Shown here: positions 8,501 to 26,733 of the stretch, in pieces
Numbering within the stretch: the stretch's first letter is position 1
How the letters are laid out: the number at the start of each line of letters is the position of its first letter
Assembly: GCA_964514005.1 (NCBI GenBank)
Contig: CAZEOW010000003.1
Span: 1-26,733 of the forward strand
Length of the DNA stretch: 26,733 nucleotides
Source of the DNA: an uncultured Nautiliales bacterium
GTDB lineage: Bacteria > Campylobacterota > Campylobacteria > Campylobacterales > Nautiliaceae
Direction: 5' to 3'
The notes under the pieces: model-generated
What the model was told of the DNA's origin: nothing
What the model saw: only the letters and a program-made list of their open reading frames with translations
Database searches by the model: none
Position numbers and translations under genes: made by a program

Positions 8501-8828
8501 GTAAAAGCTTTTTATATTTTCCTTTTTCGTAAAAGTAAGAGACTGTATTATTTGGATTTTTGATTAAATATTTTTTATAAATAAAAAAAGATTCTATTTG
8601 TCTTTTTAATTTTTTTGCTATTTTATTTTTTTTATCTATTTTTAAAACTTTTTCTATATATTTTTTAGCTTCTTTATAATTTCCTTTTTGAATATAATAT
8701 TTTGCTAATAAAAGGCGGTTTTTTGTATCGTATTTGTGAGTTTTTACATATTGGATTAAACCTTTTACATCAATATTTAAAGCAAAAAGAGGAATAAAAA
8801 ATAAAAGCAGCAATACTCTTATTTGCAT
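5559..8828 (-). CDS. Outer-membrane polysaccharide export protein: signal peptide, TPR scaffold, NTF2-like domain, K/P-rich linker, C-terminal beta-barrel (PgaA/BcsC/PelB functional class)
   Basis: MQIRVLLLLFFIPLFA signal (ATG 8828 preferred over 8846); many TPRs with recurrent LA..L.W.G; about 250 C-terminal residues of alternating aromatic strands including CYYSP, ending in Trp. Confidence 0.78.
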   Translation of the reverse strand: MQIRVLLLLFFIPLFALNIDVKGLIQYVKTHKYDTKNRLLLAKYYIQKGNYKEAKKYIEKVLKIDKKNKIAKKLKRQIESFFIYKKYLIKNPNNTVSYFYEKGKYKKLLQFFYALNAIKKIDSLTDDSKIKIARVLMWEGKYKDSLFVLSKIKNKKSIDYFEIKAYNLYYLGKYKEAKNYFKLLYYSSFKLDYAKKLIEIYYYLGEYNKAEKLLKQITKYDKKFTQKYSKKIEEAKKRVIKNLEEAYKKDPSYKNLEALAFALFQQNHKKAVLLVQDFINKNPHNDNAKILLAKLLSWSGNNKEALEYLKKLQHTNNPKVKLLLGKILAWEGKYYQATIYLSDVLEHGNKKEKYEAYKMLAYIQMWQGNKKKAKSMFKKVLKENPFDEDAKESLMILNKNIAPLIKKYKKLLKKDPANEEYLLKLADFYYMIKNYQQSAYYYERYLKLHPENAQIYKTLGDIYLELKNYYKGFGNWEYYANYKNTKEAYLELAKRYYWNGFNKEALRVLNQLLNKYPNYKKAAILKAKILKISPNFVTSSTAATIDEYFNNRSKKLLILGDRAYFSNNYATAADYYKMYLSYNPDDYDVHEKYAYTLEYSKQYAKAAGEFYLLMWYKKTPTIEYNYAYSLQKSGKIEEAKKIYKKLLSQMPKPLPNSLKEFLNNWKKAWESMNFREYSKFYGKNYTNNLGWVLRKQALFKNSYFISVGIYDPILLEKRKNVYIVKFYQVFASKRKKDKGYKTLYIKCEKKCKIIRESWEKGKYVPFKKENSLKKYILENLKAIEAKKSKSKKVVSHKNIIKKPLIKKITIKKPPKKIIKPIKTTPKKTQPKKSIVVIKTLKNYFLNFKLNYFKDNQKTDMTTYYLTAGKNIFGLIRGYNLTQNNQNHKSYYYGIGYKNKNFLIDIFYDIEKMVGWDIEYFNKYTFRINKHNLAYSRKSICSIKYNRIKAEISYFNQISPIRDLWYSLAYEYVNNKNNVFTPQFYYDFYESFPFTMFAEGWYQFNSKNSCYYSPKKTDSNFIGIKYQKNYLTLKGAIGYSFFDSKNLYKISAFYKNKIFKTGCSFSNSSNTTNTNDYESIECLLEILKVW

Positions 8829-11957: not shown

Positions 11958-12582
11958 GCTCTCTTTTATTTATAATTAAATCTTTTTTTCCAAGTTTTTC
12001 TCTTAATCTTTTTACCAAAACATTTAAAGTATTTTTTGGAACATATTCTTGCCATATGTGAGATATGATAAAATCAGAACTTAAAATCTTTCCTTCATTA
12101 TTTAAAAATAATTCCAATAAATCACTTTCTCTTCTTGTAAGATTGATTACTTTTGCTTTTTTTATTAAAAGTTTTTCTTCATAGTTATACTTAATATCAT
12201 CGTCTATATAAATAATTTTTTTAGGTTTAAAAATTTTATTAATTCTCAAAATTATTTCTTCATAATCAAACGGTTTTTTTATAAAATCTTCTGCACCAAG
12301 CTCAAAGGCTTTTTTTATATTTTCTATTTCAGTATGACTTGACATAATAATAATTTTGTATCTTTCAAAGATTTGAAAATGTTTTTTCATCTCTTCTAAA
12401 AAATTCCCATCAGGTAAAGTTATATCAGCCAAAATCAAATCAGGATCTATTTTTTCAAAGTTTTGTAAAAACTCTTTAAGGGTATAATATGAATATATTC
12501 TAAACTCTTCTGCTTCAAGAATTAAACTTATAGCATAATTTAAATCTTTTTCGTCTTCTAGGATAACTATCTTCAACTTCAC
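11926..12582 (-). CDS. OmpR/PhoB-family response regulator
   Basis: ILEDE acidic pocket, DLILADITLPDG phospho-Asp, KKPF, winged-helix LTRRE...LNVLVKRLREKL...GY. GTG start at 12582 or TTG at 12576. Confidence 0.93.
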   Translation of the reverse strand: MKLKIVILEDEKDLNYAISLILEAEEFRIYSYYTLKEFLQNFEKIDPDLILADITLPDGNFLEEMKKHFQIFERYKIIIMSSHTEIENIKKAFELGAEDFIKKPFDYEEIILRINKIFKPKKIIYIDDDIKYNYEEKLLIKKAKVINLTRRESDLLELFLNNEGKILSSDFIISHIWQEYVPKNTLNVLVKRLREKLGKKDLIINKRELGYIFRKGGE

Positions 12583-12589
12583 CCCCCCC
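12582..12589 (-). repeat. G8 homopolymer forming the ribosome-binding region of the response regulator
   Basis: Eight C on the plus strand between the rsmE stop (12591) and the regulator start. It is the longest G/C run seen in this AT-rich window. Confidence 0.85.
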
Positions 12590-12590
12590 T

Positions 12591-13247
12591 TTATAATAAA
12601 ACTTTTGCACTAACTGAAAATGCGGCTGTTTCGCTTTTTAATATAAATCCATCAAGAGACACTTTTTGTTTAAACATTTCTTTTTCTTTTTTACTAAATC
12701 CACCTTCAGGTCCTATTATAAAAGGCAGATTATAGCTTTTACACTCTATTTTTGGTGCATTAAAATCTAATGCTATAAAATTTTTGTATTTTTTAATAAA
12801 CTCTTCTAACGAATCTAAAATCTCTATTTCTAACTTATTGCTTCTTCCACACTGCTGAGAAGAGTTGATTATAATTTTATCTAATCTTTCTTGTTTTAAC
12901 CTAAAATTTCTTTGAGAATATTCACAATAAAAAAAACTTATTTTACTTACGCCTATTTCATTTAGACTTGGAAGAGTCTTTTCTATATTTTTTGGTTCTA
13001 TTATACACCATCCTAAATGGAAAAATTTTAATGGTTTGTTAGGCTTTAAAATTTTTTCTTCTAAGGTTAAATATGCCTCTTTTTTATTAATCTCCTCTAT
13101 TTTATAGATATATAAATAATCGTCTTTTAAATTTCTGATTTTTACTTTTTCATTTTTTTTTATTCTTCTTACCTTAAATAAATACTTATGATTTTCTCCT
13201 TTTATAATTATATTATTTATAGGATTAGGCTCATATAAAAATTGCAT
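12591..13247 (-). CDS. rsmE: 16S rRNA m3U1498 methyltransferase RsmE
   Basis: H...VRRIK N-terminus, QQCGRS, IIGPEGGFS and ILKSETA SPOUT motifs. Confidence 0.93.
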   Translation of the reverse strand: MQFLYEPNPINNIIIKGENHKYLFKVRRIKKNEKVKIRNLKDDYLYIYKIEEINKKEAYLTLEEKILKPNKPLKFFHLGWCIIEPKNIEKTLPSLNEIGVSKISFFYCEYSQRNFRLKQERLDKIIINSSQQCGRSNKLEIEILDSLEEFIKKYKNFIALDFNAPKIECKSYNLPFIIGPEGGFSKKEKEMFKQKVSLDGFILKSETAAFSVSAKVLL

Positions 13248-13298: not shown

Positions 13299-15008
13299 TT
13301 GAAGAGTATTATAGATTTTTTAGAAGACCCTAAAAAGACAAAAATTTACGAAGTATTAAATGTAAGTGATGAAGAATTGGTTATTTTGCAAAGGATGGTG
13401 GAAAGTTATTTAGATGAAATTGAAGATGTAAAAGTAAGGTCATTGCTCTCTTTTATTTTTGGAGAAGAGAAAATAGAACTTTTAAAAAAAGTTAAATATA
13501 TTAAAAATCTTATAGATGAAGGTTGGCTTGTTTTAAGTGTTTTTGGAGATGTAAAAAGCCATAATGTTACATCTCTTGAACTTTTTAATTCATCTGTTTC
13601 TCTCTCTGTTACTTTTTTAAAACTTTTAGAAGAGGGAAATCTGGATATTATAGTGCCTGAAAAAACACCTTATGAAGAACATTTAGAATATCTGCACGAT
13701 GAATTTTTAAGAATAGAGATTTATGAACAGATAGCTAACTTTTATCACAATAATTCTAATCATAAAGAAACAGCCAATATAAAAAGACTTCAAAGTAAAT
13801 TAAAACTAATAGAAAACACTATAAAAGACAGAATTAAACTTACTCTTATAGATTTGCCTGTTAGAAATTTTATTATAGAAAAGGAATTGAGTGAAGAAGA
13901 AGAGATTTTATTTTTAGCTCTTTTAAAAGAAGAATTTATTGGAAATAATGAAAAAATAAGAGACCTAAACTATCTTTTAAACCTTATTAGTCATGATGAA
14001 ATAGAGAGAATTAAAAACAGAACCCTCTTAGATGATAACTCCAAACTTATTAGTGAAGGTATTTTTGATTACGATGAAGTTTTTGGAATGTTAGGAAATG
14101 GATATACAAAAATATTTATGTTAAATGAAGAAATTTTAAATGAGTTTGCCCATCCAAGAATAAAGAAAAAAACAGAATCTATTGTAAAAGAGACTATTTT
14201 TGAAATAATTGAACCAGAACAAGGATTAGATGAAATAGTTTTACCTAAAAAAACAAGGGATATGCTTGATATTTTATTAAAACAGATAGATAAAAGAGTT
14301 TTAAAACTTTTAAAAGAGTGGGGTATTAAGAAAAGCTCTGATGTAGAAGCCAAAATTATATTTTATGGAGCTCCCGGAACCGGTAAAACTATTACAGCAT
14401 ATGCAATAGCAAAAGAGCTTAAAAAACCTATTTTAAGTTTAGACTCAAGTAAAATACTCTCTATGTATGTTGGTGAGAGTGAAAAAAATGTGAGAAAAAT
14501 GTTTGATGATTACTATCATATCAGTGAAAAATTAAAAACAAAACCAATTTTACTTTTAAATGAGGCTGATCAATTTTTTAGCGTAAGAACAACAGGGGCA
14601 ATTAGTAGTGCTGATAAAATGCATAATCAAATGCAAAATATTTTCCTTGAACAACTTGAAAAGTTTGATGGAGTTTTAATAGCTACTACTAATTTACTCG
14701 AAAATATAGATGCGGCATTTTCAAGAAGATTTGAATATAAAATAGAGTTTACAAAACCAAATTATAAAGATAGGAAAAAAATATGGGAGATAAAATTGCC
14801 TAAAAATGCCCCTTATGAAGAAAATTTTGATGTTTCTAAATTAGCAAAATATGACTTAACAGGAGCACAGATAGAAGTAATCATAAAAAATACAGCCTAT
14901 AAAGTAGCACGAAGAAAAAAACCGCTTTTTAAAGTAGAAGATTTTATAGAAGAGATTAAAAAAGAAAAAGAAAACTCTTTTGACGCTGAAAAAGAAGTAG
15001 GTTTTTAA
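13299..15008 (+). CDS. AAA-family ATPase (Campylobacterota Cj0377-like)
   Basis: FYGAPGTGKT Walker A, LLLNEAD Walker B variant, TTNL sensor, AFSRRF arginine finger. TTG start after AGGAGAGAGG. Confidence 0.9.
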   Translation: MKSIIDFLEDPKKTKIYEVLNVSDEELVILQRMVESYLDEIEDVKVRSLLSFIFGEEKIELLKKVKYIKNLIDEGWLVLSVFGDVKSHNVTSLELFNSSVSLSVTFLKLLEEGNLDIIVPEKTPYEEHLEYLHDEFLRIEIYEQIANFYHNNSNHKETANIKRLQSKLKLIENTIKDRIKLTLIDLPVRNFIIEKELSEEEEILFLALLKEEFIGNNEKIRDLNYLLNLISHDEIERIKNRTLLDDNSKLISEGIFDYDEVFGMLGNGYTKIFMLNEEILNEFAHPRIKKKTESIVKETIFEIIEPEQGLDEIVLPKKTRDMLDILLKQIDKRVLKLLKEWGIKKSSDVEAKIIFYGAPGTGKTITAYAIAKELKKPILSLDSSKILSMYVGESEKNVRKMFDDYYHISEKLKTKPILLLNEADQFFSVRTTGAISSADKMHNQMQNIFLEQLEKFDGVLIATTNLLENIDAAFSRRFEYKIEFTKPNYKDRKKIWEIKLPKNAPYEENFDVSKLAKYDLTGAQIEVIIKNTAYKVARRKKPLFKVEDFIEEIKKEKENSFDAEKEVGF

Positions 15009-15134
15009 TTATTACAAAATGTAACAGAATTAATCAAAAGTTAATAGAAGATTTGAGATATTTATAATTTTAATTTATAATTTGTTAAATTAATGTAGTA
15101 TATTTATGGTAAGATACAAAAAAAAGGAGAATGA
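15009..15134 (+). promoter_or_regulatory. Probable promoter region of the complex I-like operon
   Basis: 126-nt gap with TATAAT at 15063-15068 and 15076-15081 and an AGGAG SD before ATG 15135. The exact promoter cannot be resolved. Confidence 0.35.
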
Positions 15135-15473
15135 ATGGGAACAGTCTTAATTTATGCAGCTGGTATTTTAGCTGGAATTTTTTTGCTTTATTTAATTGGT
15201 ATTAGTGTAGCCCCTTTTAATCCAAGTGATATTAAAAATGATCACTTTGAGTGTGGGCTTCCACCAAGTTCTGAAGTTCCTATGAAAGCGAACTTTGGAT
15301 ATTTTATTTTTGCAATTGCTTTTATTGTTTTTGATATGGCAGGGTTGTTTTTTAGTCTATTTGTATTTGCTGATAGTAAAGAGGCTTTAAATTGGGCAAT
15401 GGTATTTGGGATACTTTTATTTGCCGCTATTACTATTTCGATGAAGGAGTATAGAAATGCTAAAGATTCTTGA
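15135..15473 (+). CDS. nuoA: Complex I-like subunit A
   Basis: Three TMs, HFECG loop, FIVFD motif. Confidence 0.88.
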   Translation: MGTVLIYAAGILAGIFLLYLIGISVAPFNPSDIKNDHFECGLPPSSEVPMKANFGYFIFAIAFIVFDMAGLFFSLFVFADSKEALNWAMVFGILLFAAITISMKEYRNAKDS

Positions 15474-15930
15474 TTTTTTTAATTATGCAAGAAGTAAATC
15501 ACCTTGGATAGTGCACTTTTGTAGTGGATGTTGTTCTCTTGAGATACTTGCGGCAATGGGACCAAGATATGATTGGGAAAGGTATGGATATATAATGACA
15601 CCAACTCCAAGACAAGCAGATATTATCTTTATTACCGGATTAGTTAGTAAAAAAATTTTACCGGCTCTTCTTAGAACTTATGAACAAATGCCAGAGCCAA
15701 GATATGTAGCAGCAATAGGAGCTTGTGCTTATGATGGAGGCCCTTATAATGATAGTGTTTCAGTTATCAAAAATATGACAGAGATTTTGCCTGCAGATAT
15801 ATTTGTAGCAGGATGTCCTCCAAAACCTGAAGCAATTATTGCTGGTCTTGAAGAGTTAAAAGAAAAAATTAAAAGAGGGGAGCCAAGTGCATCAAGCCAA
15901 GGCGGCCTTTGGAAACAAATGAAATTTTAA
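15457..15930 (+). CDS. nuoB: Complex I-like subunit B (N2 cluster)
   Basis: GCCSLE, YDWERYG, PRQAD, MPEPRYV, IGACA, GCPPKPEA. Confidence 0.93.
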   Translation: MLKILDFFNYARSKSPWIVHFCSGCCSLEILAAMGPRYDWERYGYIMTPTPRQADIIFITGLVSKKILPALLRTYEQMPEPRYVAAIGACAYDGGPYNDSVSVIKNMTEILPADIFVAGCPPKPEAIIAGLEELKEKIKRGEPSASSQGGLWKQMKF

Positions 15931-15933
15931 GGG

Positions 15934-17589
15934 ATGACAATGGAGAGAATTAAAGAGATACTTAATAAATTTGATATGGAGTATGTTGAAGATTATAAAC
16001 AAAAATGGGTAAAAGCTAAATTAAAAAATAAAGAAGATTTATTAAATGTAGTTAAAGCTTTAAAAGAAGAGGGAGTTAGGACCTGTTCTACTGTATCTCC
16101 TACAGATTTTATTGATGAAAATAAAATAGAAGTAAATTATTTTCTAGAAGATTTAAGAAATAGAAGAAATATTTGGTTAAAAGTTGATATAGATAGAGAA
16201 CTTGATAAATGTGAAATTGATTCAATTACTCCTTTATTTCCAAGTGCTGATTGGCATGAATTAGAAGCTTATTCTACTTATGGAGTGAAATTTAAAGGTC
16301 ATCCAAATTTAAGATATTTCTTAATTAGCAGAGATTATTATGGGAAATTTCCATTTAGAAAAGATTTTGAGTGGAAAGAGCATGAAAAAAATTTAATAGA
16401 AAATGTAAACTCTATTACAGAAGAGTTTTTAGAAGAGTATGAAGAACATGAAAAAACAATGGGACATGAGGAAAGTAAAACAGTTCTTCACTGGGGTCCT
16501 ACTCATCCAGCAAGTGGTCCTATGAGATTAAAAGTTTATATAGATGGTGAAAATATTAAAAAAGTAGAGCCAGATATAGGATATGTTTGGAGGGCATTAG
16601 AACATTTAGCAGAGAGAAAAGATTTTATAGGAACAATAGTAGCAGTTGAGAGAATTTGTTTTATGGATAATCCAAATCCTATGATTTGTTATTCTCAAGC
16701 AGTAGAAGAAATTGCCGGAAAAGAGATTACAGAATTTGCTAAATATATGAGAGTTATCCTAGGAGAGACAGGAAGAATAGCTTCTCATTTAATTTCCCTT
16801 GGTGGATTTTTTGGCACAATGGGGCTTGCAACATTTTTAATGTGGAATTTAGATGTTAGAGAGTATTTTCTTGATGTTTTAGAAGAGTATAGTGGGGCAA
16901 GAATTGCAACTGCATGTGTAGAACCAGGTGGTGTAAGATATCCTTTAGAGGATGCAGAAGCTTGGTTTAAGAAAATTGAAGAAGCAATTGAAAAGTGGGA
17001 ATCTGTTAAAAAAGATATAGAAGATATATTTATAAATAACCCTCTTATGACTGTAAGAGCAAAAGGAGTAGGAGTATTTACACAAGATGATGTAGAAGAA
17101 TTTTATTTAGCAGGTCCTATTGCAAGAAGTACAGGCTTTAAAACCGATGTAAGAATTGATGAACCTTATGCAGCTTATGCAGATTTAGATATAGATTATG
17201 TTACATGTGAAAGTGGAGATACAAGAGATAGACTTTATATAATCTATAAAGAGATTAATCAATCAATTGATTTAATTAAACAAGCTATTGCAAAAATTAG
17301 AGCAGGAATTGAAGCAGGTGAAATGGACCCTAAAAAAGACCATCTTGTAAAAATGCCAAAAAGACTTCCAGCAGGTGAAGCGGTAAATAGAATTGAATGG
17401 GCAAGAGGAGAGATTTTAATGCATCTTGTAACAAAAGATAAAGCTACAAGTCCTTACAGACTTAAAATTAAAGCCCCAAGTGTAAATCATACAATGGTTC
17501 TTGATAAGTTATTAAGTGGAAAAACATTATCAGATATTCCACTATTTTATGGAAGTATGCATATTTGTCAGGGTGACTTAGATAGATAA
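15934..17589 (+). CDS. nuoCD: Complex I-like fused subunit C/D (no complete NiFe-binding motifs)
   Basis: NuoC part ADWHELE...FKGHPNLR...PFRKDF; NuoD part WGPTHP, GYVWR, EWARGE, RLKIKAPS, GDLDR. The real start may be ATG 15940. Confidence 0.9.
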   Translation: MTMERIKEILNKFDMEYVEDYKQKWVKAKLKNKEDLLNVVKALKEEGVRTCSTVSPTDFIDENKIEVNYFLEDLRNRRNIWLKVDIDRELDKCEIDSITPLFPSADWHELEAYSTYGVKFKGHPNLRYFLISRDYYGKFPFRKDFEWKEHEKNLIENVNSITEEFLEEYEEHEKTMGHEESKTVLHWGPTHPASGPMRLKVYIDGENIKKVEPDIGYVWRALEHLAERKDFIGTIVAVERICFMDNPNPMICYSQAVEEIAGKEITEFAKYMRVILGETGRIASHLISLGGFFGTMGLATFLMWNLDVREYFLDVLEEYSGARIATACVEPGGVRYPLEDAEAWFKKIEEAIEKWESVKKDIEDIFINNPLMTVRAKGVGVFTQDDVEEFYLAGPIARSTGFKTDVRIDEPYAAYADLDIDYVTCESGDTRDRLYIIYKEINQSIDLIKQAIAKIRAGIEAGEMDPKKDHLVKMPKRLPAGEAVNRIEWARGEILMHLVTKDKATSPYRLKIKAPSVNHTMVLDKLLSGKTLSDIPLFYGSMHICQGDLDR

Positions 17590-17598
17590 GGAGTGAAA

Positions 17599-18570
17599 AT
17601 GGGTATTGGTGAAATGTTATTTTATATTTTAGTGTTTCCGGGTTTTTTATTTTTATTAGGTTGGACATTTTTTGTTTTTTATTTTGCAAGAAAAACTCTT
17701 GCATATGTGCATAAAAGGGTAGGTCCTCACTATAATGGACCAGCAGGTAGTTTACAAACTGTTTATGATATTTTTAAACTTTTAGTAAAAGAATCTGTAA
17801 CACCAAAGAGTGCCGATCCATATTTATTTAATATTATCCCAATTTTAACTCCTCTTATAGCGGCACTTCCTGTTATCTTAATTCCATGGACTCCTCTTAT
17901 TAACAATGGACATGGAATTGTAGATACTCAATATGGAGTGTTAGGACTTGTTGTTTTAATTGGAGTTGAACCTTTCTTATTGTTCCTAACAGGGTTTGGA
18001 AGTAATAATAAATACTCTTTTCTTGGTGGTATGAGGATATTATCTCAGATGATATCGATGGAAGCTCCGTTTTTCTTAGCGGCACTTTCACCTGCACTTT
18101 TATTTGGTACAATGAATTTATATGAGATTATGTATAGCAATACTTGGCTTACAACTCTTATATTATTACCTGGTGCTATTATTTTTATTATTGCAATGCT
18201 TGGTATTTTAGAACAACCACCTTTTCATATTCCTGATGCAGAACAAGAAATTGTTTATGGATTTTATACAGAGTATGCAGGAACAAATTATGTTCTTTTA
18301 AAATTTGCTGAATTTACAGAAATTTTAGTTGTATCAGCAGCAGCAGTTGTTTTATTTTTTGGAGGGTATAAAGGATTATTCTTCGATAGTTTTTGGTGGC
18401 TGTTTTTAAAAATTATTTTAATTGCGATAGTAATGATAGGTATTAGAGCTTCTAATCCAAGACTTAGACTTGATCAAATGCTTAAATTCTGTTGGAGTTG
18501 GCTAACCCCTCTTGCAGTATTAAATCTTGTGTGGATAGCATTTGCAAAAATTTATATTTTAGGAGCATAA
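17599..18570 (+). CDS. nuoH: Complex I-like subunit H
   Basis: RVGP, DIFKLLVKE, GSNNKYSFLGGMR, EYAG, PRLRLDQ. ATG 17599 after AGGAG is preferred over GTG 17593. Confidence 0.93.
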   Translation: MGIGEMLFYILVFPGFLFLLGWTFFVFYFARKTLAYVHKRVGPHYNGPAGSLQTVYDIFKLLVKESVTPKSADPYLFNIIPILTPLIAALPVILIPWTPLINNGHGIVDTQYGVLGLVVLIGVEPFLLFLTGFGSNNKYSFLGGMRILSQMISMEAPFFLAALSPALLFGTMNLYEIMYSNTWLTTLILLPGAIIFIIAMLGILEQPPFHIPDAEQEIVYGFYTEYAGTNYVLLKFAEFTEILVVSAAAVVLFFGGYKGLFFDSFWWLFLKIILIAIVMIGIRASNPRLRLDQMLKFCWSWLTPLAVLNLVWIAFAKIYILGA

Positions 18571-18571
18571 G

Positions 18572-19090
18572 ATGTTATTTCAAATAGCTGAAAAAGTTAC
18601 AAAAGTTTTTAAATCTGTAACAGAACCAAGAATAGCAACAAAAGATGTTGTAAAAGATCCAGCACATAAATCTCAGATTTTTAGAGGAAAACATCAAATT
18701 AAATATGATTTATGTATAGGATGTGATGCTTGTAATAAAATTTGTCCTGTTGATGCAATTGTAATGAAAAAATTACCTATTAAAAAACCAAGAATTATTC
18801 CTGAAGTAAATCTTGCTATTTGTATTTTTTGTGGATTATGTGAGGATGTTTGTCCAACAAAACCAGAAAAAGCAATTAAATTAAGCGGTGGTGATATAGA
18901 AATGATTGCAGGTGGAACTCATGAAGATTTAACAAACTTTTGGGTAAGAGTAGATGTGCCAGAAGAGTGGATTGAAAAAAAGAAAAAAGAGGAAGAAGAA
19001 AAAGCTAGAAAAAAAGCTGAAGCTCTTAAAAAGAAAAAAGAGGCTGAAGCTGCTAAAAAAGCTGCTGCTAATAAAGGAGAGGGAAAATGA
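18572..19090 (+). CDS. nuoI: Complex I-like subunit I (2x[4Fe-4S]) with charged C-terminal tail
   Basis: CIGCDACNKICP and CIFCGLCEDVCP. Confidence 0.92.
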   Translation: MLFQIAEKVTKVFKSVTEPRIATKDVVKDPAHKSQIFRGKHQIKYDLCIGCDACNKICPVDAIVMKKLPIKKPRIIPEVNLAICIFCGLCEDVCPTKPEKAIKLSGGDIEMIAGGTHEDLTNFWVRVDVPEEWIEKKKKEEEEKARKKAEALKKKKEAEAAKKAAANKGEGK

Positions 19091-19554
19091 GTGTTTTAAT
19101 TTTAGCGTTGGCTCTTATTTTAGCGGTTATGAGTCTAACTCAGAGAAATACAGTAGGAGCAGTTCTTTCATTTGTTATAATGATGTTTTTATTAGGAATT
19201 TATTATATTCTTATGAATGAAAAACTTTTAGGATTGTTTCAAATATTTGTATATACAGGTGGTATAGTTGTTTTAACTCTATTTGGGATAACAGTAATAG
19301 GTGCTAAATTTCCTAAATTTGAAATTAGACCGTGGGCAGTAGCAGTAGTTAGTATTGTAATGATTGGACTTTTAATTATTCCATTTTTATTACCTGATAC
19401 TGAAACGCCATCACAAGCTATACCTTTAAAAGATCAAGTAAAAATATTTACGGATTTTTACGCTGAACTTGCAATATTTATGGGAGTTGTAGCAGCAAGT
19501 GTATTGTATGGAAGTATAAGAATGCTACATACTCTAAAACATGAAAAGGAATAA
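19087..19554 (+). CDS. nuoJ: Complex I-like subunit J
   Basis: Five hydrophobic segments; QIFVYTGGIVVL motif; position between I and K. Confidence 0.88.
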   Translation: MSVLILALALILAVMSLTQRNTVGAVLSFVIMMFLLGIYYILMNEKLLGLFQIFVYTGGIVVLTLFGITVIGAKFPKFEIRPWAVAVVSIVMIGLLIIPFLLPDTETPSQAIPLKDQVKIFTDFYAELAIFMGVVAASVLYGSIRMLHTLKHEKE

Positions 19555-19557
19555 AAA

Positions 19558-19866
19558 ATGGTAGGGTTTTATATAGATGCAATTTTTGCAATAGCCCTTT
19601 TTGGAGTGGGGTTATATGGAGTAACAAGTAAAACTGACTTTTTAAAGATTTTCTTTTCACTTGAGATTCTTTTAAATGCAGTTATTTTACTTTTAGCAAG
19701 TGGGGCGTATCATTTTGGACTTACTAAAAATTTAGCAATTGCTTATGTTATTATTGTTATTGCTACTCTTGAAGCAGCAGCTGGAGTTTTAATTTTCTTA
19801 CTTACATATAGAATTACTAATGAAGTAATTCCAGACAATTTAAATAAGGCGGTGAAAGATGAGTAG
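19558..19866 (+). CDS. nuoK: Complex I-like subunit K
   Basis: SLEILLNA and LEAAAG (both conserved Glu present). Confidence 0.9.
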   Translation: MVGFYIDAIFAIALFGVGLYGVTSKTDFLKIFFSLEILLNAVILLLASGAYHFGLTKNLAIAYVIIVIATLEAAAGVLIFLLTYRITNEVIPDNLNKAVKDE

Positions 19867-21709
19867 TGCAGTATTAATATTACTAACAGCACCGTTTATA
19901 GGTTCGGTGTTAGCTTATGTGTTAGGGAAATTAAAAATAAATTTAGCTTTTTGGGTAGCAGAAATAGTAGGTGCTATGCTATTTGCTGCAAGTATTTCTA
20001 TTTTTATGAACTATTCTCATACAGTTATTGATATAGATTATACTTGGATTGCGTATGGTGATTTAAGATTACCATTTGGTATTTATATTGATCATCTTTC
20101 AATGGTAATGCTTTTAATTGCAACAGGATTAGGGTTTGCAGATATTCATTTTGCTCATGATTATATGGGTGAAGATCCAGATCAACCAAGATATTATTCA
20201 AAAGTATTATTCTTTATTGGTGGTATGATTTTACTTGTTATTACAAAAGATTTAATTGGTGCATTTGTTGGTTGGGAGTTTATGGGGCTTGCAAGTTATG
20301 CATTAATTAGCTTTTGGTATTATAAACATTCAGCAGCAAGTGCAGGGATGCAGGCATTTCTTTATACAAGATTTGGTGATATCTTTATTTTAGCAGCAAT
20401 TGGTTTATTAGTTTATTATGCAGGAACTTTAAATTTAGTAGAACTTAATGAAATGGCAAATAATGGAGAAATTCCAAAAGTAGCTGCTCTTGTTATTGCT
20501 CTATTCATATTTATGGGAGCTATTGGTAAATCTGGACAATTTCCTCTTTATCCATGGCTTATGAATGCAATGGAAGGTCCGACTACTGTTTCAGCTTTAA
20601 TCCATGGTGCAACAATGGTTAACTCTGGTATTTATATTGTTGCAAGAATGTTTGACTTTTTTGCTTATACTGAAGCTTTATTTATTGTTGCAAATGTAGC
20701 GGCTCTTTCGGCATTTATTGGAGCAACATCGGCTCTTGTTCAAAAAGAGATTAAAAAAATCCTTGCTTACTCAACAATGTCGCATCTTTCAATTGCTTTT
20801 GTAGGACTTGGAGTTGGAAGTTTAGCAGCGGGAATGCTACATCTTGTAAACCATGCTATTTTTAAAGCATTACTATTCTTAAGTGCTGGTGCAGTAATTT
20901 ATATTGCACATCATACAAAAGATGCATGGAAATTAGGAGGGCTTATTAAAACAGCGCCTTTTGTTGCTTTATTTATGGGAATGGGTTCTTTAAGTTTAGC
21001 AGGTGTTCCTCCGTTTAGCGGATTTTTCTCAAAAGAGCTTGTGGTAACAAATGCTTGGGTTCATGGAAATGATTTCATTAAAGTATTTGCAACCATTGCG
21101 GCACTTTTATCAATTGGATATATCACAAGACTTTGGATATTAATCTTTTTAGGTGAAACAAGACATGAAGATCTAAAAGGAAGTATGCACTCTCCAAGTA
21201 ATTTATGGATTAGATTACCACTTGGAGTATTAGCTGTTGTAACATTGGCTATTGCAATTTGGCAAAGTGATATTATTCATTTTATTGTAGGTGGTGAAGA
21301 GATTGAACCACATGTAGCAGGTTTAACTGCATTTATGTTAACAGGAATGATAATTATTTTTTTAATAATTGTTGGCCTTTATGTAAAAGAATTAAAATTA
21401 CTTGAAAAAATTTCATCTCATCACTTTATGAAAACTATACATCAAGTATTATTTAATGGATATTATGTTGAAGCTATGATTACATGGATTTCAAAAACAA
21501 TTGTTGTAAACTCTTTTGGAAAATCTGCAAGATGGTTTGATACTTACGTAATAGATTGGCTTGTAAATGCTACTGTTCCTGCTACAAAAGGGGTATATAA
21601 AGCATTTAGAACAGGACATACTGGTAGAATTGGTGATTATATGGGGCTATTTGTAATAGGTGTAGCAATTATCGTAGTTGCAATACTAATAATTGTAAAG
21701 GGTCTGTAA
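19859..21709 (+). CDS. nuoL: Complex I-like antiporter subunit L
   Basis: GWEFMGLASY, TRFGD, GKSGQFPL.PWL..AMEGPT.VSALIH, KILAYST, HAIFKALLFL. Confidence 0.95.
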   Translation: MSSAVLILLTAPFIGSVLAYVLGKLKINLAFWVAEIVGAMLFAASISIFMNYSHTVIDIDYTWIAYGDLRLPFGIYIDHLSMVMLLIATGLGFADIHFAHDYMGEDPDQPRYYSKVLFFIGGMILLVITKDLIGAFVGWEFMGLASYALISFWYYKHSAASAGMQAFLYTRFGDIFILAAIGLLVYYAGTLNLVELNEMANNGEIPKVAALVIALFIFMGAIGKSGQFPLYPWLMNAMEGPTTVSALIHGATMVNSGIYIVARMFDFFAYTEALFIVANVAALSAFIGATSALVQKEIKKILAYSTMSHLSIAFVGLGVGSLAAGMLHLVNHAIFKALLFLSAGAVIYIAHHTKDAWKLGGLIKTAPFVALFMGMGSLSLAGVPPFSGFFSKELVVTNAWVHGNDFIKVFATIAALLSIGYITRLWILIFLGETRHEDLKGSMHSPSNLWIRLPLGVLAVVTLAIAIWQSDIIHFIVGGEEIEPHVAGLTAFMLTGMIIIFLIIVGLYVKELKLLEKISSHHFMKTIHQVLFNGYYVEAMITWISKTIVVNSFGKSARWFDTYVIDWLVNATVPATKGVYKAFRTGHTGRIGDYMGLFVIGVAIIVVAILIIVKGL

Positions 21710-23136
21710 TGGTAGCAATAGATATAATTTTTGCACCGATAGTGCTATCGGCACTACTTTATTTTTTAACTCGTGCAAATGAAGGACTTGCTAAATATAT
21801 AGCACTTGGGTGGTTTATTGTACAGTTTATAATTGCTTTTAACTGGTATAATCAATTACCTGAAAATGGATTTTTAGAACTCGGTACTTTTTTACAAGTT
21901 TCTCAATTTGATTTTAATTTAACTTTAAGAGTTGATGCATTGAGTGTAGCAATGCTTCTTTTAACAGCAGCACTTTTAATTTTAGTTGTATTTACTTCTT
22001 GGGAAGAGAAAAAACAAGCAGCTTATTTTAGTCTACTTGTAATGTTTAGTGGACCTATTTTTGGTGTGTTTATGACAACAAATGTATTATGGTTTTTTAT
22101 GTTTTGGGAACTGACTCTTGTGCCTATGCTATTTTTAGTAGGTATTTGGGGAGCTGAAGAAAGAATTTATGCAGCAATTAAATTTTTCTTATATACACAT
22201 GTATTTTCTATGTTTATGTTTGTTGGGTTTTATTTACTTTATAAACAAACAGGATATTGGGATTTAACTTTAATTAAAGAAACAGCAATTGCAACCCCTT
22301 TTCTTGTTTGGTGGTTAATATTTATTGGATTTGCAGCAAAACTACCGGTATTTCCTTTTCATACTTGGCTTCCAGATGCACACGTTCAAGCACCAAGCAG
22401 TATATCAGTATTACTTGCAGGTGTATTATTAAAAATGGGTGCTTATGGTTTAATTAGATTTACGGTTGAATTAATGCCACAAACTACAATTCACTTTTCA
22501 TCATATATGTTATTCTTTGGTATTGCTACTACTTTATTTGCAGGTATGCTTGCTATTTATGAAAGACATATTAAAAAAATGGTTGCTTATTCTTCAATCT
22601 CTCATATGGGACTTGTAGTAGTTGCTATTGCTACAATGACATATGATGGTTTAAGTGCAGCTCTTTATGAAATGATAGGACATGCCCTTGTTATATCACC
22701 ACTATTTTTAATAGCAGGATGGCTACATCATAAAACACATACCTGGTATATGGATGAAATGGGTGGTATTATGAAAAAAGCTCCATATGTAAGTGCTATA
22801 TTTGTATTAGCCGGTATGGCGGCTCTTGGTCTTCCGGGAACTATGGGATTTGTTGGAGAACTTACAATTATAGTATCAGCAATTAAATCTTTTGGATGGT
22901 GGATTGCAGTCATTGCAATATCTTCATTAATTAGTGCAGGATATATTATTTGGGCTATTAGAAGGGCAATTCATGGTCCTATATCAGATATTGTTGCTAA
23001 ATATAATTTTCATATGAGTTTAGCAGAAAAATTTGCATTAGCTGTATTTGCTTTATTAATTATATATTTTGGAATTCAGCCACAACCAATTTTTGATATA
23101 GCAAATCAAGCATTTAGCTTTCTTGGAGGTATGTGA
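21709..23136 (+). CDS. nuoM: Complex I-like antiporter subunit M
   Basis: FWELTLVP, AAIKFFLYT, KLPVFPFHTWLPDAH, LLKMGAYG, AYSSISHMG. TAATG overlap with nuoL. Confidence 0.95.
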   Translation: MVAIDIIFAPIVLSALLYFLTRANEGLAKYIALGWFIVQFIIAFNWYNQLPENGFLELGTFLQVSQFDFNLTLRVDALSVAMLLLTAALLILVVFTSWEEKKQAAYFSLLVMFSGPIFGVFMTTNVLWFFMFWELTLVPMLFLVGIWGAEERIYAAIKFFLYTHVFSMFMFVGFYLLYKQTGYWDLTLIKETAIATPFLVWWLIFIGFAAKLPVFPFHTWLPDAHVQAPSSISVLLAGVLLKMGAYGLIRFTVELMPQTTIHFSSYMLFFGIATTLFAGMLAIYERHIKKMVAYSSISHMGLVVVAIATMTYDGLSAALYEMIGHALVISPLFLIAGWLHHKTHTWYMDEMGGIMKKAPYVSAIFVLAGMAALGLPGTMGFVGELTIIVSAIKSFGWWIAVIAISSLISAGYIIWAIRRAIHGPISDIVAKYNFHMSLAEKFALAVFALLIIYFGIQPQPIFDIANQAFSFLGGM

Positions 23137-24473
23137 TGAGTTTTATAGTATTAATCGCAACAGGATTATTGGTACCTGTTTTTTATAAAAACCATATTAC
23201 AATAGCAAAGCTCATTGCTGTATTGGCATTTATAGCTTCTGCTTACTTTGTATATAATAATATGAGTTTAAATAGTGTGTTTCCTTATTTTGTATTAGAT
23301 GATGCTACAAAACTTATGGAATATGTAATGCTAATTACATTAGCAGCAGCATCTTTAACATTTAGTGGCTTTGAAAGACCTTTAATTTCTCAAATGCTTT
23401 TACTTGCAGGTGCAAGTTTAGGAATACTTGAGACAAATAATTTCTTTGTATTTATTGTATTGTTTGAAGTTATTGCTATAATTTCTTATATATTAGTAGC
23501 TAATATTAGAAATGCTTACAACGCAGAAGGTGCTATTAAAGCGTTTATTGCTGGTGCAGTTGCAAGCGGTATTATTTTAATCGGTTTTGCAATGTTTAGT
23601 TTTGTAACAGACAGTTTTAATTATGCTCAAATAAATGTAGATGGTAAATTTACATTAATTGCAGTAGCTATTATGTTAGCGGGTATTTTTTATAAACTTA
23701 CAATTGTTCCAATGCATGGATGGGCAAGTGATACTTATTCTCAAGTAAATCATGCAGCGGCTGGAATTTTAAGTGGGGTTATTAAAAGTGTAGTATTAGT
23801 TGCTATCTTTAAAGCTTTTTATAAATTTTTAATTGCTTATCCTACTGCAACTGTATTAATTTTTAGTTTCTTTGCTATTTTAACTATGACACTTGCAAAC
23901 TTTATGGCTTTATGGCAAAAAAGAATTTCAAAAATTTTAGCTTATTCTTCAATTGCTCATAGTGGATATGCTCTTATTCCATTTGCTGCAGCAGCAAGTG
24001 CATATTCTTATGCAGGGGTTTTATATTATGCAATTGCATATATCTTTATGCAAACAAGTGTATTTTTAATTTTAAACGATTTAAGAAGAGAGGGTGGAAT
24101 TAAATATCTTGATGATATTAAAGGACTTTATAAAAAATCACCAATGCATGCTTTATTGTTTACAATTCAATTATTTTCTTTAGCAGGTATTCCTCTACTT
24201 GCAGGATTTTTAAGTAAAGCTGTTGCATTTTATGCAGGAGTAGATGCTGGTTTATGGCCAATAGTATTAGTTGCTTTATTAAATTCGGCTCTTGCAGTTG
24301 CTTATTATGCATGGATTGTAAAACATATCTATTTTGATGAGCCTCAAGAAGGAAGTGTAGCAGAAATTCCAATGACAACGGGGAGTTTAATAGGTCAGCT
24401 TATATTATTAGCAGGAACTATCTATTTTGGAATAATAGCTTCAGATATATTTAATGCAACAATTCAAATGTAA
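23136..24473 (+). CDS. nuoN: Complex I-like antiporter subunit N
   Basis: EGAIK, YKLTIVPMHGW, KILAYSSIAHSGY, SLAGIP..AGF.SK. ATG 23136 (TGATG overlap, GGAGG SD) is preferred over GTG 23133. Confidence 0.93.
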   Translation: MSFIVLIATGLLVPVFYKNHITIAKLIAVLAFIASAYFVYNNMSLNSVFPYFVLDDATKLMEYVMLITLAAASLTFSGFERPLISQMLLLAGASLGILETNNFFVFIVLFEVIAIISYILVANIRNAYNAEGAIKAFIAGAVASGIILIGFAMFSFVTDSFNYAQINVDGKFTLIAVAIMLAGIFYKLTIVPMHGWASDTYSQVNHAAAGILSGVIKSVVLVAIFKAFYKFLIAYPTATVLIFSFFAILTMTLANFMALWQKRISKILAYSSIAHSGYALIPFAAAASAYSYAGVLYYAIAYIFMQTSVFLILNDLRREGGIKYLDDIKGLYKKSPMHALLFTIQLFSLAGIPLLAGFLSKAVAFYAGVDAGLWPIVLVALLNSALAVAYYAWIVKHIYFDEPQEGSVAEIPMTTGSLIGQLILLAGTIYFGIIASDIFNATIQM

Positions 24474-26698: not shown

Positions 26699-26733
26699 AT
26701 TAACTTTTATGTATAAGTTTATATATTTGGGTT

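What the first reader, a model, noticed from the sequence alone, without database searches (positions are those of the whole stretch)
16495..17586. D subunit lacks both quinone ligands but keeps two hydrogenase cysteines, as in Fpo and MBS
Seen: GPTHPASGPMRL lacks the second His of GPqHPstHG; ERICFMD replaces DRLDY (Tyr to Phe, Cys242 at 16657); the C-terminus is HICQGDLDR (Cys545 at 17566). Each CxxC survives as CxxD. Known: NuoD binds quinone through that His and Tyr; NiFe hydrogenases need both CxxC; Pyrococcus sulfane reductase MbsL retains two of the four Cys, and FpoD has similar motifs (recalled). Inference: neither hydrogenase nor canonical quinone reductase; a candidate polysulfide or low-potential-carrier reductase, fitting a sulfur-reducing vent organism.
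Basis: partly seen in the sequence, partly recalled or inferred. Interest (0 to 1): 0.7.

Follow-up and report, generated by a model that had tools for sequence, protein, structure and literature searches.

The report
Complex I relative with odd acceptor pocket
A hydrothermal-vent bacterium (family Nautiliaceae) carries a stripped-down relative of respiratory complex I whose substrate pocket lacks the usual quinone-binding residues and keeps two leftover hydrogenase cysteines; this was already described in 2015, and what the enzyme reduces is still untested.

Summary
The D domain of a fused NuoCD (15934-17589) has GPTHPASGPMRL (the quinone-binding His is deleted), RICFMD (Tyr->Phe, Cys242 kept) and HICQGDLDR (Cys545 kept). 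Cys242, Phe243, Asp245, Cys545 and Asp548 are invariant in 203 distinct orthologues.

It belongs to a 10-gene nuoA-B-CD-H-I-J-K-L-M-N operon with no nuoEFG. The operon forms one well-supported clade in Nautiliaceae, some Sulfurimonas/Sulfurovum-labelled MAGs, and Aquificota including Desulfurobacterium and Thermovibrio.

The pattern was published for Nautiliales and Desulfurobacteriales by Degli Esposti (2015), so the finding is already known.

The sulfane-reductase reading is only partly supported:
- The D domain's best solved-structure match is MbsL, and it shares MbsL's hallmark positions.
- The B subunit keeps complex I's tandem-Cys ligands (CSGCC), not the CxxCG behind the three-Cys catalytic cluster of MBS.
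- NuoH, L and M are complex-I type, not Mrp type.
- The clade does not group with MBS in a tree.
- The MbsL cysteines are dispensable for MBS activity.

Best guess (about 0.45): a ferredoxin-linked, reversible, proton-pumping menaquinone reductase with a non-canonical pocket, as in Fpo. Sulfane reduction remains possible (about 0.2).

The parts
15053..15081 (+). sigma-70-like promoter candidate upstream of nuoA (TTGAGA-17-TATAAT)
   Evidence: 11 of 12 consensus matches. This is a consensus match only.
15135..15473 (+). nuoA (112 aa)
   Evidence: Pfam Oxidored_q4, E 1e-12. Conserved as the first gene of the operon in all clade loci.
15457..15930 (+). nuoB (157 aa), carrier of the proximal [4Fe-4S] cluster. 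Cys motif F-C22-S-G-C25-C26-S-L-E at nt 15520-15534.
   Evidence: Pfam Oxidored_q6. NCBIfam NuoB subfamily models pass their cut-offs (181.7 > 116; 160.3 > 142.7). Gap-free alignment to MbsJ FCTGCGGIE and to PSST FGLACCAVE. C[ST]GCCSLE is present in every clade locus in which the motif scan found nuoB.
15934..16470 (+). NuoC domain of the fused NuoCD
   Evidence: Pfam Complex1_30kDa over aa 32-150. The fusion is present in Campylobacterota members; C and D are separate genes in Aquificota.
16471..17589 (+). NuoD domain of the fused NuoCD. This is the finding.
   Evidence: AF2 model with pLDDT 93 and a NuoD/49-kDa fold, TM 0.87-0.93.
16495..16530 (+). beta1-beta2 loop GPTHPASGPMRL: one residue shorter than in complex I, with the quinone His (Thermus H38) deleted
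   Evidence: alignments. Within HPASGP, His191, Pro192, Ser194 and Gly195 are invariant in 203/203; Ala193 is kept in 200 and Pro196 in 198.
16651..16668 (+). RICFMD: Cys242 (first NiFe Cys kept), Phe243 (in place of quinone Tyr87), Asp245 (in place of the second NiFe Cys)
   Evidence: alignments. All three residues are invariant in 203/203.
17560..17586 (+). C-terminal HICQGDLDR: Cys545 (third NiFe Cys kept), Asp548 (in place of the fourth)
   Evidence: alignments. Cys545, Gly547, Asp548 and Arg551 are invariant.
17593..18570 (+). nuoH (325 aa), membrane anchor and wall of the substrate tunnel
   Evidence: Pfam NADHdh, E 2.5e-84. Nqo8 151 bits against MbsM 56 and MbhM 51.
18572..19090 (+). 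nuoI (172 aa), two [4Fe-4S] motifs plus a Lys/Glu/Ala-rich C-terminal tail (about nt 18959-19087)
   Evidence: Fer4 families, TIGR01971 NuoI. The tail is present in Campylobacterota members and much shorter in Aquificota.
19087..19554 (+). nuoJ (155 aa)
   Evidence: Pfam Oxidored_q3.
19558..19866 (+). nuoK (102 aa), with two membrane Glu residues (in SLEILL and ATLEAA)
   Evidence: Pfam Oxidored_q2; sequence. Their assignment as the conserved NuoK glutamates is from my own knowledge.
19859..21709 (+). nuoL (616 aa), antiporter-like subunit, full length
   Evidence: TIGR01974 NDH_I_L 424 bits (cut-off 407.5), covering residues 5-609.
21709..23136 (+). nuoM (475 aa), antiporter-like subunit
   Evidence: TIGR01972 406.9 bits (cut-off 263.8). 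The equivalents of E. coli NuoM E144, K234, K265 and E407 are conserved in the alignment; residue numbers are from my own knowledge.
23133..24473 (+). nuoN (446 aa), antiporter-like subunit
   Evidence: Pfam Proton_antipo_M. TIGR01770 215 bits, below its cut-off of 332.6.

Best explanation
The region is the D (49-kDa-like) domain of a fused NuoCD subunit. It belongs to a complex-I-like enzyme made from ten genes, nuoA-B-CD-H-I-J-K-L-M-N, with no NADH-oxidising NuoEFG module, in a Nautiliaceae bacterium.

Proposed working (inferred, not shown):
1. A low-potential soluble carrier, most likely ferredoxin, donates electrons at NuoI.
2. The electrons pass through the two NuoI [4Fe-4S] clusters to an N2-type cluster in NuoB, which is ligated by the tandem Cys25-Cys26 plus two further Cys.
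3. They then go to a lipophilic acceptor in the NuoD/NuoB/NuoH cavity. The most probable acceptor is the organism's menaquinone, bound without the classical His/Tyr/Asp triad, much as Fpo binds methanophenazine without the His and Asp.
4. The reaction is coupled to proton pumping by a normal complex-I membrane arm. It may run backwards (menaquinol plus proton-motive force gives reduced ferredoxin) to feed the reductive TCA cycle.

Cys242 and Cys545 are the two terminal Ni ligands of the ancestral [NiFe] site. They are kept under strong selection next to the proximal cluster, and their role is unknown.

Shown here: the operon's identity and make-up, the pocket substitutions, their invariance, and the clade's distribution.
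Inferred: the donor, the acceptor and the direction.
For: Operon and family assignments.

Pocket substitutions and their invariance.

NuoB keeps the tandem Cys-Cys.
- In characterised systems this goes with quinone, plastoquinone or phenazine acceptors: complex I and NDH (PMC8165549) and Fpo (PMC4758237; Fpo locus L088 reads PMGCCGVE).
- MBS-type operons read CxxCG.

The membrane arm is complex-I type and looks competent to pump.
- NuoH is complex-I type.
- NuoL and NuoM pass the subfamily cut-offs.
- The key charged residues of NuoM are conserved.

Energetics. A published review ties complex I's four pumps to a much larger free-energy span than the 41 kJ/mol per 2e- of ferredoxin-to-polysulfide in MBS, which has two pumps (PMC8165549).

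Precedent. Fpo has the same Cys pair and lacks H38 and D139, yet reduces a membrane quinone analogue.

Physiology of carriers.
- N. profundicola has this complex as its only Nuo, plus a quinone pool and quinol-dependent PsrABC for polysulfide (PMC2628731).
- Two Aquificota loci place an Ech-type ferredoxin-linked [NiFe] hydrogenase operon directly upstream on the same strand.
- NuoC and NuoI are detectable in D. thermolithotrophum (PMC12724263).
Against: - All three residues known to hold and protonate the quinone head group are missing, and here the Tyr is gone too, unlike in Fpo. In that respect the pocket looks more like MbsL than like any proven quinone site.
- The D domain's best solved-structure hit by sequence is MbsL (178 bits against 164 or less for 49-kDa/NuoD).
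- No biochemical data exist for any member of the clade.
- Fpo shows that three antiporter-like subunits can go with a small redox span, so the energetic argument is soft.
- The donor is guessed: no ferredoxin or flavodoxin gene is linked to the operon.
Confidence: 0.45

Rival explanations
1. Sulfane/polysulfide reductase. The pocket would reduce polysulfide or organic polysulfides on the cytoplasmic side, as P. furiosus MBS does, but joined to a complex-I-type proton-pumping arm.
For: - The D domain's best PDB hit is MbsL. It shares MbsL's loop length, the loss of the His and Tyr, and the CxxD/E...CxxD pattern.
- NuoB also keeps the MbsJ-C25-equivalent Cys22.
- The clade is confined to S0-reducing, H2-oxidising vent lineages.
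- D. thermolithotrophum respires sulfur compounds yet is reported to lack psr/sre, sqr and mbs (PMC12724263).
Against: - The feature that defines MBS catalysis, a three-Cys proximal cluster arising from CxxCG, is not met: CxxCC supplies the fourth ligand.
- MbsL C85/C385 and MbsJ C25 mutants keep activity, so the shared cysteines say nothing about sulfane chemistry.
- NuoH and the antiporter set are complex-I type, not Mrp type.
- There is no tree support for a sister relation with MBS (0-5%).
- Nautilia already has PsrABC.
- Most Nuo subunits were undetected in D. thermolithotrophum grown on thiosulfate and H2, which is odd for a main terminal reductase.
- Ferredoxin-to-polysulfide gives only about 41 kJ per 2e-.
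Confidence: 0.2
2. NAD(P)H-linked complex. The 11-subunit core would dock a separately encoded NuoEFG-like module, or pass electrons on to NAD(P)+, as earlier genome papers proposed (reverse electron transport to NAD(P)H).
For: - Campbell 2009 proposed reverse electron flow to NAD(P)H for N. profundicola.
- Degli Esposti 2015 guessed ferredoxin-to-NADP+, by analogy with the old view of Mbx.
- D. thermolithotrophum has a separate nuoGFE operon whose abundance changes with H2.
Against: - nuoEFG is absent from the operon in every clade locus, and nuoE, F and G are reported missing from the N. profundicola genome.
- The Mbx analogy is out of date: Mbx is now MBS, a sulfane reductase.
- This concerns the donor side only and does not explain the changed pocket.
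Confidence: 0.1
3. Thiol/disulfide chemistry at the vestigial site. Cys242 and Cys545, perhaps with NuoB Cys22, would form a redox-active dithiol or persulfide relay next to the proximal cluster (in the style of FTR or Hdr) that reduces a disulfide, persulfide or protein partner.
For: - Three cysteines and two aspartates around the former NiFe site are invariant across two phyla.
- In MBS the equivalent three cysteines lie within tunnelling distance of the proximal cluster.
- An Fpo-like complex has been proposed to feed a disulfide reductase directly (PMC4758237).
Against: - There is no direct evidence.
- The equivalent MBS mutants have no phenotype in vitro.
- Fpo keeps the D pair without the extra NuoB Cys.
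- No conserved partner gene flanks the operon.
Confidence: 0.08
4. Decaying or non-functional relic of complex I.
For: The D, H, A, J, K and N subunits fall below the NCBIfam equivalog cut-offs.
Against: - All ten ORFs are intact and tightly packed.
- There are 203 distinct orthologues with invariant pocket residues.
- The pump residues are conserved.
- Subunits are detected as protein in D. thermolithotrophum.
Confidence: 0.02

Closest known systems
'Ancestral' NUO11/NUO10 complex of Nautiliales and Desulfurobacteriales (Degli Esposti 2015, Genome Biol Evol, PMC4758237)
   Same: This is the same thing. The operon has no nuoEFG, NuoC and NuoD are fused in Nautiliales, NuoD keeps the first and third NiFe Cys (Thermus positions 86 and 403), and H38, Y87 and D139 are absent or substituted. 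The window protein is 82-83% identical to the Nautilia, Lebetimonas and Caminibacter orthologues.
   Different: Three points refine that description.
- The paper's text says the NuoB Cys doublet 'abruptly appears' in Fpo. Here, every clade locus in which the motif scan found nuoB reads CxxCC, so the doublet is already present together with the hydrogenase/MBS-type first Cys. I could not see the paper's tables or figures.
- The clade also occurs in MAGs labelled Sulfurimonas, Sulfurovum or Sulfuricurvum.
- The paper's functional guess, ferredoxin to NADP+, rested on the old view of Mbx.
[quoted passage not shown]
   Same: - MbsL is the D domain's best solved-structure hit by sequence.
- The beta1-beta2 loop has the same length.
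- The quinone His and Tyr are absent.
- The first and third NiFe Cys are kept, and the second and fourth become acidic residues.
- MbsJ C25 has an equivalent here, NuoB Cys22.

   Different: - MbsJ reads CxxCG, giving a three-Cys catalytic cluster; here CxxCC.
- The MBS membrane arm is Mrp type with two antiporter-like subunits (a true MBS-like operon is locus L086); here NuoA/H/J/K/L/M/N.
- MbsM matches NuoH at only 56 bits.
- There is no tree support for a sister relation.

Fpo, F420H2:methanophenazine oxidoreductase of Methanosarcinales, and Fpo-like ferredoxin-dependent complexes
   Same: An 11-subunit Nuo-type core with L, M and N. FpoD keeps the same two Cys and lacks the His. FpoB has the tandem Cys-Cys. 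There is no NuoEFG.
   Different: - FpoD keeps the Tyr (RICYLV) and has Glu rather than Asp at the fourth-Cys position.
- FpoB lacks the first Cys.
- FpoO (and FpoF) are absent here.
- The NCBIfam FpoD score is 252.8 against a cut-off of 600.
- The hosts here are bacteria, which I would expect to use menaquinone rather than methanophenazine (my own knowledge).
Canonical complex I / NDH-1, including the 11-subunit menaquinone- or plastoquinone-reducing forms of Bacteroidota, Chlorobi and cyanobacteria
   Same: Same gene set and order for the core. NuoB has the tandem Cys. NuoH, L and M are of the same type. The D domain has the same fold (TM 0.87-0.93).
   Different: The canonical forms have HPxTHGV, R-x-D-Y and D-x-V-x-x-E/D, with no cysteines in the pocket.
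Archaeal Nuo11 of the Sulfolobales/Korarchaeum type, and rare archaeal 'CF-type' Nuo operons (loci L004, L089)
   Same: - These are the nearest groups by distance in the NJ analysis.
- They have the same shortened loop: HPGSGHMR against HPASGPMR.
- The CF-type operons share RxCF..[DE], CxxD and NuoB CxxCC.

   Different: The Sulfolobales type has no pocket cysteines (ERPAILD, DYFPPEADR) and has a His in the loop. The function of these complexes is also untested.

Membership tests
'Ancestral' NUO11/NUO10 of Nautiliales/Desulfurobacteriales (Degli Esposti 2015) | nuo operon with A, B, C, D, H-N but no nuoEFG | tested here: met
   The same order is found in the Nautiliaceae, Sulfurimonas/Sulfurovum-labelled and Aquificota loci.
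'Ancestral' NUO11/NUO10 of Nautiliales/Desulfurobacteriales (Degli Esposti 2015) | NuoD keeps the first and third NiFe Cys and lacks H38, Y87 and D139 | tested here: met
'Ancestral' NUO11/NUO10 of Nautiliales/Desulfurobacteriales (Degli Esposti 2015) | Groups with Nautilia, Desulfurobacterium and Thermovibrio NuoD in a tree | tested here: met
   The clade has 100% bootstrap support (NJ, 300 replicates).
MBS (membrane-bound sulfane reductase) | MbsL-type large subunit: two of four NiFe Cys kept, quinone His and Tyr absent | tested here: met
   PMC7684303.
MBS (membrane-bound sulfane reductase) | MbsJ CxxCG motif, giving a proximal [4Fe-4S] cluster with only three Cys ligands (the proposed catalytic site) | tested here: not met
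   NuoB reads FCSGCCSLE, gap-free against MbsJ FCTGCGGIE, so the Gly is a Cys here. This holds in every clade locus in which the motif scan found nuoB. Actual ligation cannot be read from sequence.
MBS (membrane-bound sulfane reductase) | Mrp-type membrane arm (MbsA-H' homologues) | tested here: not met
   The operon has only Nuo-type A/H/J/K/L/M/N subunits. A real MBS-like operon (L086) shows MnhE, MrpF, MnhG, MbhD and MbhE.
MBS (membrane-bound sulfane reductase) | Phylogenetic grouping with MbsL | tested here: not met
   0-5% bootstrap for query clade plus MBS groupings. Deep nodes are unresolved, so this is absence of support, not proof of distance.
MBS (membrane-bound sulfane reductase) | Ferredoxin-dependent polysulfide/DMTS reduction | not testable with these tools
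   Needs an enzyme assay.
Fpo (F420H2 dehydrogenase) | FpoD with the Tyr87 equivalent plus the vestigial Cys pair | tested here: not met
   The Cys pair is present but the Tyr is Phe243. Genuine FpoD reads RICYLV.
Fpo (F420H2 dehydrogenase) | NCBIfam FpoD, FpoH, FpoI, FpoK and FpoL models above their cut-offs; FpoO/FpoF present | tested here: not met
   FpoD scores 252.8 against a cut-off of 600, and the others are also far below. There is no FpoO-like gene after nuoN, unlike L088.
Canonical complex I / NDH-1 quinone reductase | Quinone head-group ligands His38 and Tyr87, with partner Asp139, in NuoD | tested here: not met
   alignments; invariantly absent across the clade.
Canonical complex I / NDH-1 quinone reductase | Tandem Cys-Cys ligands of cluster N2 in NuoB | tested here: met
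   Cys25-Cys26 align with the PSST Cys-Cys.
Canonical complex I / NDH-1 quinone reductase | Complex-I-type NuoH and antiporter-like L/M/N with their key charged residues | tested here: met
   NuoN falls below its subfamily cut-off. The key residues of L and N were not checked one by one.
Canonical complex I / NDH-1 quinone reductase | NCBIfam NuoD equivalog score above the cut-off | tested here: not met
   Best is NF004739 at 313.3 bits against a cut-off of 360; TIGR01962 scores 252 against 459.
Group 4 membrane-bound [NiFe] hydrogenase | Four Cys ligands (RxCGxC ... DPCxxC) in the large subunit | tested here: not met
   Only two of the four remain. Compare the true Ech large subunit in L057, with RVCGLC and DPCLSC.

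The most novel reading that the evidence does not exclude
This Nuo-type complex could be the missing energy-conserving sulfur reductase of H2-oxidising, S0-reducing vent bacteria. Desulfurobacteriaceae are reported to lack psr/sre, sqr and mbs. The complex would reduce polysulfide or a persulfide carrier at, or next to, the proximal cluster, perhaps through the invariant Cys242/Cys545/NuoB-Cys22 trio. It would drive a full complex-I proton-pumping arm: a functional intermediate between MBS and quinone-reducing complex I.
Probability: 0.15. Interest if true: 0.8.

Novelty: already known. Interest (0 to 1): 0.35.

Why it matters
The sequence pattern is not new: Degli Esposti described it for this lineage in 2015. 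The function of the complex is still unknown, and it is the only complex I relative in Nautilia-type bacteria.

In its pocket sequence it sits between the sulfur-reducing MBS and the quinone-reducing complex I and Fpo:
- D subunit: RMCGIC (MBH), then RICVPE (MBS), then RICFMD (here), then RICYLV (Fpo), then RLDYxx (complex I).
- B subunit: CxxC (MBH), then CxxCG (MBS), then CxxCC (here), then xxxCC (Fpo and complex I).

Finding its acceptor would therefore bear on two questions. One is how quinone reactivity arose in complex I. The other is how sulfur-respiring Aquificota that lack any known membrane sulfur reductase conserve energy. Cultured hosts exist (Nautilia, Caminibacter, Desulfurobacterium, Thermovibrio), so the question can be tested by ordinary membrane biochemistry and cryo-EM.

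Tried and rejected
- Profile-based locus search with a nine-sequence alignment (A1) failed because no stretch was conserved enough. A three-sequence alignment (A2) worked.
- A first tree script with Biopython BLOSUM distances timed out. It was replaced by numpy Kimura distances. Deep nodes stayed unresolved, so I make no claim about the sister group.
- I looked for a vestigial-Cys D subunit inside an operon that contains nuoEFG, namely the first cluster reported for T. ammonificans, Theam_0731-0745. The Aquificota and Desulfurobacteriaceae loci I could fetch all lack EFG. T. ammonificans ADU97456 belongs to the 90%-identity cluster of P0298, whose representative lies in an EFG-less 11-subunit operon.
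- I searched for conserved flanking genes that might name a donor or acceptor. None is shared among the Sulfurimonas/Sulfurovum-type loci. The Nautiliaceae flanks (AAA+ ATPase, DUF7494/TPR) look like plain synteny.
- I searched the literature for expression data on S0 against nitrate, and for any post-2018 link between this clade and MBS. Nothing usable turned up.
- Wu et al. 2018 (PMC6204914) is not held.
- I could not confirm from the library my recollection that Methanothrix FpoI has a Lys-rich tail proposed to bind ferredoxin. It stays a recollection.
- The AF2 model and Foldseek search confirm a NuoD fold but do not separate MbsL from NuoD. The tools give no coordinates, so cavity and Cys-Cys distances could not be measured.
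- The hydrogenase and pseudogene readings were rejected (see the rival explanations).
Full report
**What is there.**
The window is AT-rich (21-32% G+C). On the + strand it carries ten tightly packed genes: nuoA (15135-15473), nuoB (15457-15930), a fused nuoCD (15934-17589), nuoH, nuoI, nuoJ, nuoK, nuoL, nuoM and nuoN (ending at 24473). Pfam assigns each gene to the matching complex I family, and there is no NuoE, F or G. Against NCBIfam:
- NuoB, NuoL and NuoM pass the subfamily cut-offs.
- NuoD fails every equivalog. The best is NF004739 at 313 bits against a cut-off of 360; FpoD scores 253 against 600.

The NuoCD protein is 82-84% identical to proteins from Nautilia, Lebetimonas and Caminibacter. 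The window therefore comes from a member of the Nautiliaceae (Campylobacterota).

**Checking the observation.**
Cys242 is encoded from 16657 and Cys545 from 17566. HMMER alignments to solved chains fix the equivalences:

| Position | Query | MbsL | MbhL | 49-kDa |
|---|---|---|---|---|
| beta1-beta2 loop | GPTHPASGPMRL | GPQHMATENF | not compared | GPQHPAAHGVLRL |
| first NiFe motif | RICFMD | RICVPE | RMCGIC | RLDYVS |
| C-terminus | HICQGDLDR | DNCPPDIDR | DPCLSCTD | DVVFGEIDR |

- The query and MbsL lack one residue where 49-kDa/NuoD has the quinone-binding His.
- Each hydrogenase CxxC survives as CxxD, the Tyr is Phe, and the His is deleted.
- The Asp of the 'HALDVG' motif is Thr295. Its assignment as Thermus D139 is mine.
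- A genuine FpoD, taken from an operon with fpoO next to F420-biosynthesis genes, reads RICYLV and GCTSEADR. Fpo therefore shares the Cys pair but keeps the Tyr.

**Conservation.**
In 123 sequences (the window protein plus 122 relatives) the Cys pair, Phe243 and both Asp residues are invariant. In an enlarged set of 203 distinct sequences, reaching 44% identity, they are still invariant, while only 71 of 369 D-domain positions are.

**Who has it.**
A scan of one genome per species found the same operon in three groups:
- Nautiliaceae;
- MAGs labelled Sulfurimonas, Sulfurovum or Sulfuricurvum, at 58-64% identity and with variable flanks;
- Aquificota, at 43-46% identity with C and D as separate genes.

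Named members include Desulfurobacterium thermolithotrophum, D. pacificum and Thermovibrio ammonificans ADU97456. None of these loci contains nuoEFG. In an NJ tree the clade has 100% bootstrap support, but its deep position is unresolved. It groups with MBS in 0-5% of replicates. By distance it is nearest to the archaeal Sulfolobales/Korarchaeum-type NuoD and to rare archaeal 'CF-type' NuoD.

**The other subunits.**
- *NuoB.* It aligns without gaps to both MbsJ and complex I PSST. It reads FCSGCCSLE, against MbsJ FCTGCGGIE and PSST FGLACCAVE. It thus has the MbsJ-C25-like Cys and also the complex I tandem Cys-Cys. C[ST]GCCSLE is present in every clade locus in which the motif scan found nuoB.
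- *NuoB in related operons.* Two archaeal Nuo operons with CF-type D subunits read CIACC. A true Mrp-type MBS-like operon reads YCTGCG. Fpo reads PMGCCG.
- *NuoH.* It is clearly complex-I type: Nqo8 151 bits, MbsM 56 bits.
- *NuoM.* It keeps the four key charged residues of E. coli NuoM (residue numbers from my own knowledge).
- *The D-domain model.* It is confident (pLDDT 93) and matches complex I 49-kDa/NuoD chains at TM 0.87-0.93. The fold does not discriminate between the candidates.

**What is already published.**
- Degli Esposti (2015, PMC4758237) states that the 'ancestral' Nuo complexes of Nautiliales and Desulfurobacteriales keep the first and third NiFe Cys ligands (Thermus positions 86 and 403). 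He also states that they lack H38 and have Y87 and D139 substituted. He guessed a ferredoxin-to-NADP+ function by analogy with Mbx.
- Campbell et al. (2009, PMC2628731) note that N. profundicola has only this partial Nuo, together with a quinone pool and PsrABC. They proposed reverse electron transport.

One detail may refine the record. The 2015 text says the NuoB Cys doublet 'abruptly appears' in Fpo, whereas these bacteria already have it. I could not see that paper's tables.

**Weighing the sulfane-reductase idea.**
Against it:
- The MBS structure paper (PMC7684303) shows that MbsL C85 and C385 and MbsJ C25 can be mutated without loss of polysulfide reduction.
- The same paper places catalysis at a proximal cluster held by only three Cys, because the motif lacks a fourth ligand. 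Here that ligand is present.
- The membrane arm is not Mrp type.
- The review by the same group links ferredoxin-to-polysulfide (41 kJ per 2e-) to two pumps and complex I to four.
- Fpo shows that the Cys pair is compatible with a membrane quinone analogue.

For it:
- The pocket has lost the Tyr as well, like MbsL.
- The hosts are S0-reducing, H2-oxidising vent organisms.
- D. thermolithotrophum is reported to lack psr/sre, sqr and mbs. In that study only NuoC and NuoI of this operon were detected by proteomics.

I found no paper after 2018 that proposes or tests this link.

**Most likely mechanism.**
My best reading is a ferredoxin-linked (donor inferred), proton-pumping and probably reversible oxidoreductase. 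An N2-type cluster would hand electrons to menaquinone bound in a non-canonical pocket. Weak support for a shared ferredoxin pool comes from two Aquificota loci, where a true Ech-type [NiFe] hydrogenase operon lies directly upstream on the same strand. I put this reading at about 0.45 and sulfane reduction at about 0.2. The rest is spread over an NAD(P)-linked role, thiol-based chemistry at the vestigial site, and unknowns.

**Verdict.**
The finding is already known as a sequence pattern, and the window adds a new species-level member. The open question of the acceptor is real and testable, which keeps the interest moderate.

Noticed in passing
window 15520-15534 (nuoB, aa 22-26): NuoB has three cysteines in C-S-G-C-C. 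This combines the hydrogenase/MBS-type CxxC with complex I's tandem CC. Across the loci examined, CxxCC occurs together with the vestigial Cys pair in NuoD, including in two archaeal operons. Fpo (xxxCC) and an I-B-D fusion (FTGCC) keep the D pair without the first B Cys.
   Followed up: yes
window 18959-19087 (nuoI C-terminus); overlapping ORF 18954-19220: NuoI ends in a Lys/Glu/Ala-rich tail of about 40 residues (EEWIEKKKKEEEEKARKKAEALKKKKEAEAAKKAAANKGEGK). The tail is present, with variable length, in Campylobacterota members and much shorter in Aquificota. It may be a docking surface for an acidic donor such as ferredoxin (my speculation). The 88-aa ORF 18954-19220 in another frame is probably an artefact of this low-complexity stretch.
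   Followed up: partly
window 24473-26698 (+) and 13299-15008 (+): A 741-aa DUF7494/TPR protein starts at the very base where nuoN stops, and no terminator-like site was found in the scanned stretch 24300-26733. A 569-aa AAA+ ATPase lies upstream. Both neighbours are conserved next to the operon in Nautiliaceae only, not in the Sulfurimonas/Sulfurovum-type or Aquificota loci, so this is probably plain synteny.
   Followed up: partly
window 1401-10120 (- strand): A possible exopolysaccharide cluster: a family-2 glycosyltransferase (4264-5589), a polysaccharide-deacetylase protein (2338-4107), a 1095-aa TPR protein (5559-8846), and two ORFs with no Pfam match (1401-2351, 8819-10120). It is reminiscent of a PGA-like system, but this was not checked.
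   Followed up: no
window 10107-13247 (- strand): A histidine kinase with a C-terminal TPR (10107-11957), an OmpR-type response regulator (11926-12582) and an RsmE-type 16S rRNA methyltransferase (12591-13247). Genes switch strand near 13.25 kb, and GC skew changes sign there with them. The nuo operon is richer in G+C (30-32%) than the left half (21-27%).
   Followed up: no
L057 3210-8334 and L053 3-1549 (Aquificota MAGs): A true Ech-type group 4 [NiFe] hydrogenase operon lies directly upstream of the Nuo-like operon on the same strand. Its large subunit has RVCGLC and DPCLSC, and its small subunit has CNGCDIE.
   Followed up: partly
L087 6566-8572 (protein P0127): A 668-aa single polypeptide fuses NuoI-like, NuoB-like (FTGCCFIE) and NuoD-like (ICVLD, NCPADHDR) parts. 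It sits next to a NuoC-like gene and TPP-enzyme genes, with no membrane subunits nearby. It looks like a soluble derivative of the Q-module.
   Followed up: no
L024-L050, L059, L060 (MAGs labelled Sulfurimonas, Sulfurovum, Sulfuricurvum): The same EFG-less operon (58-64% identity) occurs in vent Sulfurimonadaceae/Sulfurovaceae-labelled MAGs, with no conserved flanking genes. This suggests an accessory, possibly transferred, second complex in lineages that normally carry a larger Nuo. The rest of those genomes was not examined.
   Followed up: partly
proteins P0424-P0542 (Sulfolobales, Korarchaeum and others): The archaeal NuoD of this type has the same one-residue-shorter loop but with a His (HPGSGHMR). 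It has no pocket cysteines and no Tyr (ERPAILD, DYFPPEADR). This is another non-canonical pocket whose acceptor chemistry is unclear.
   Followed up: no
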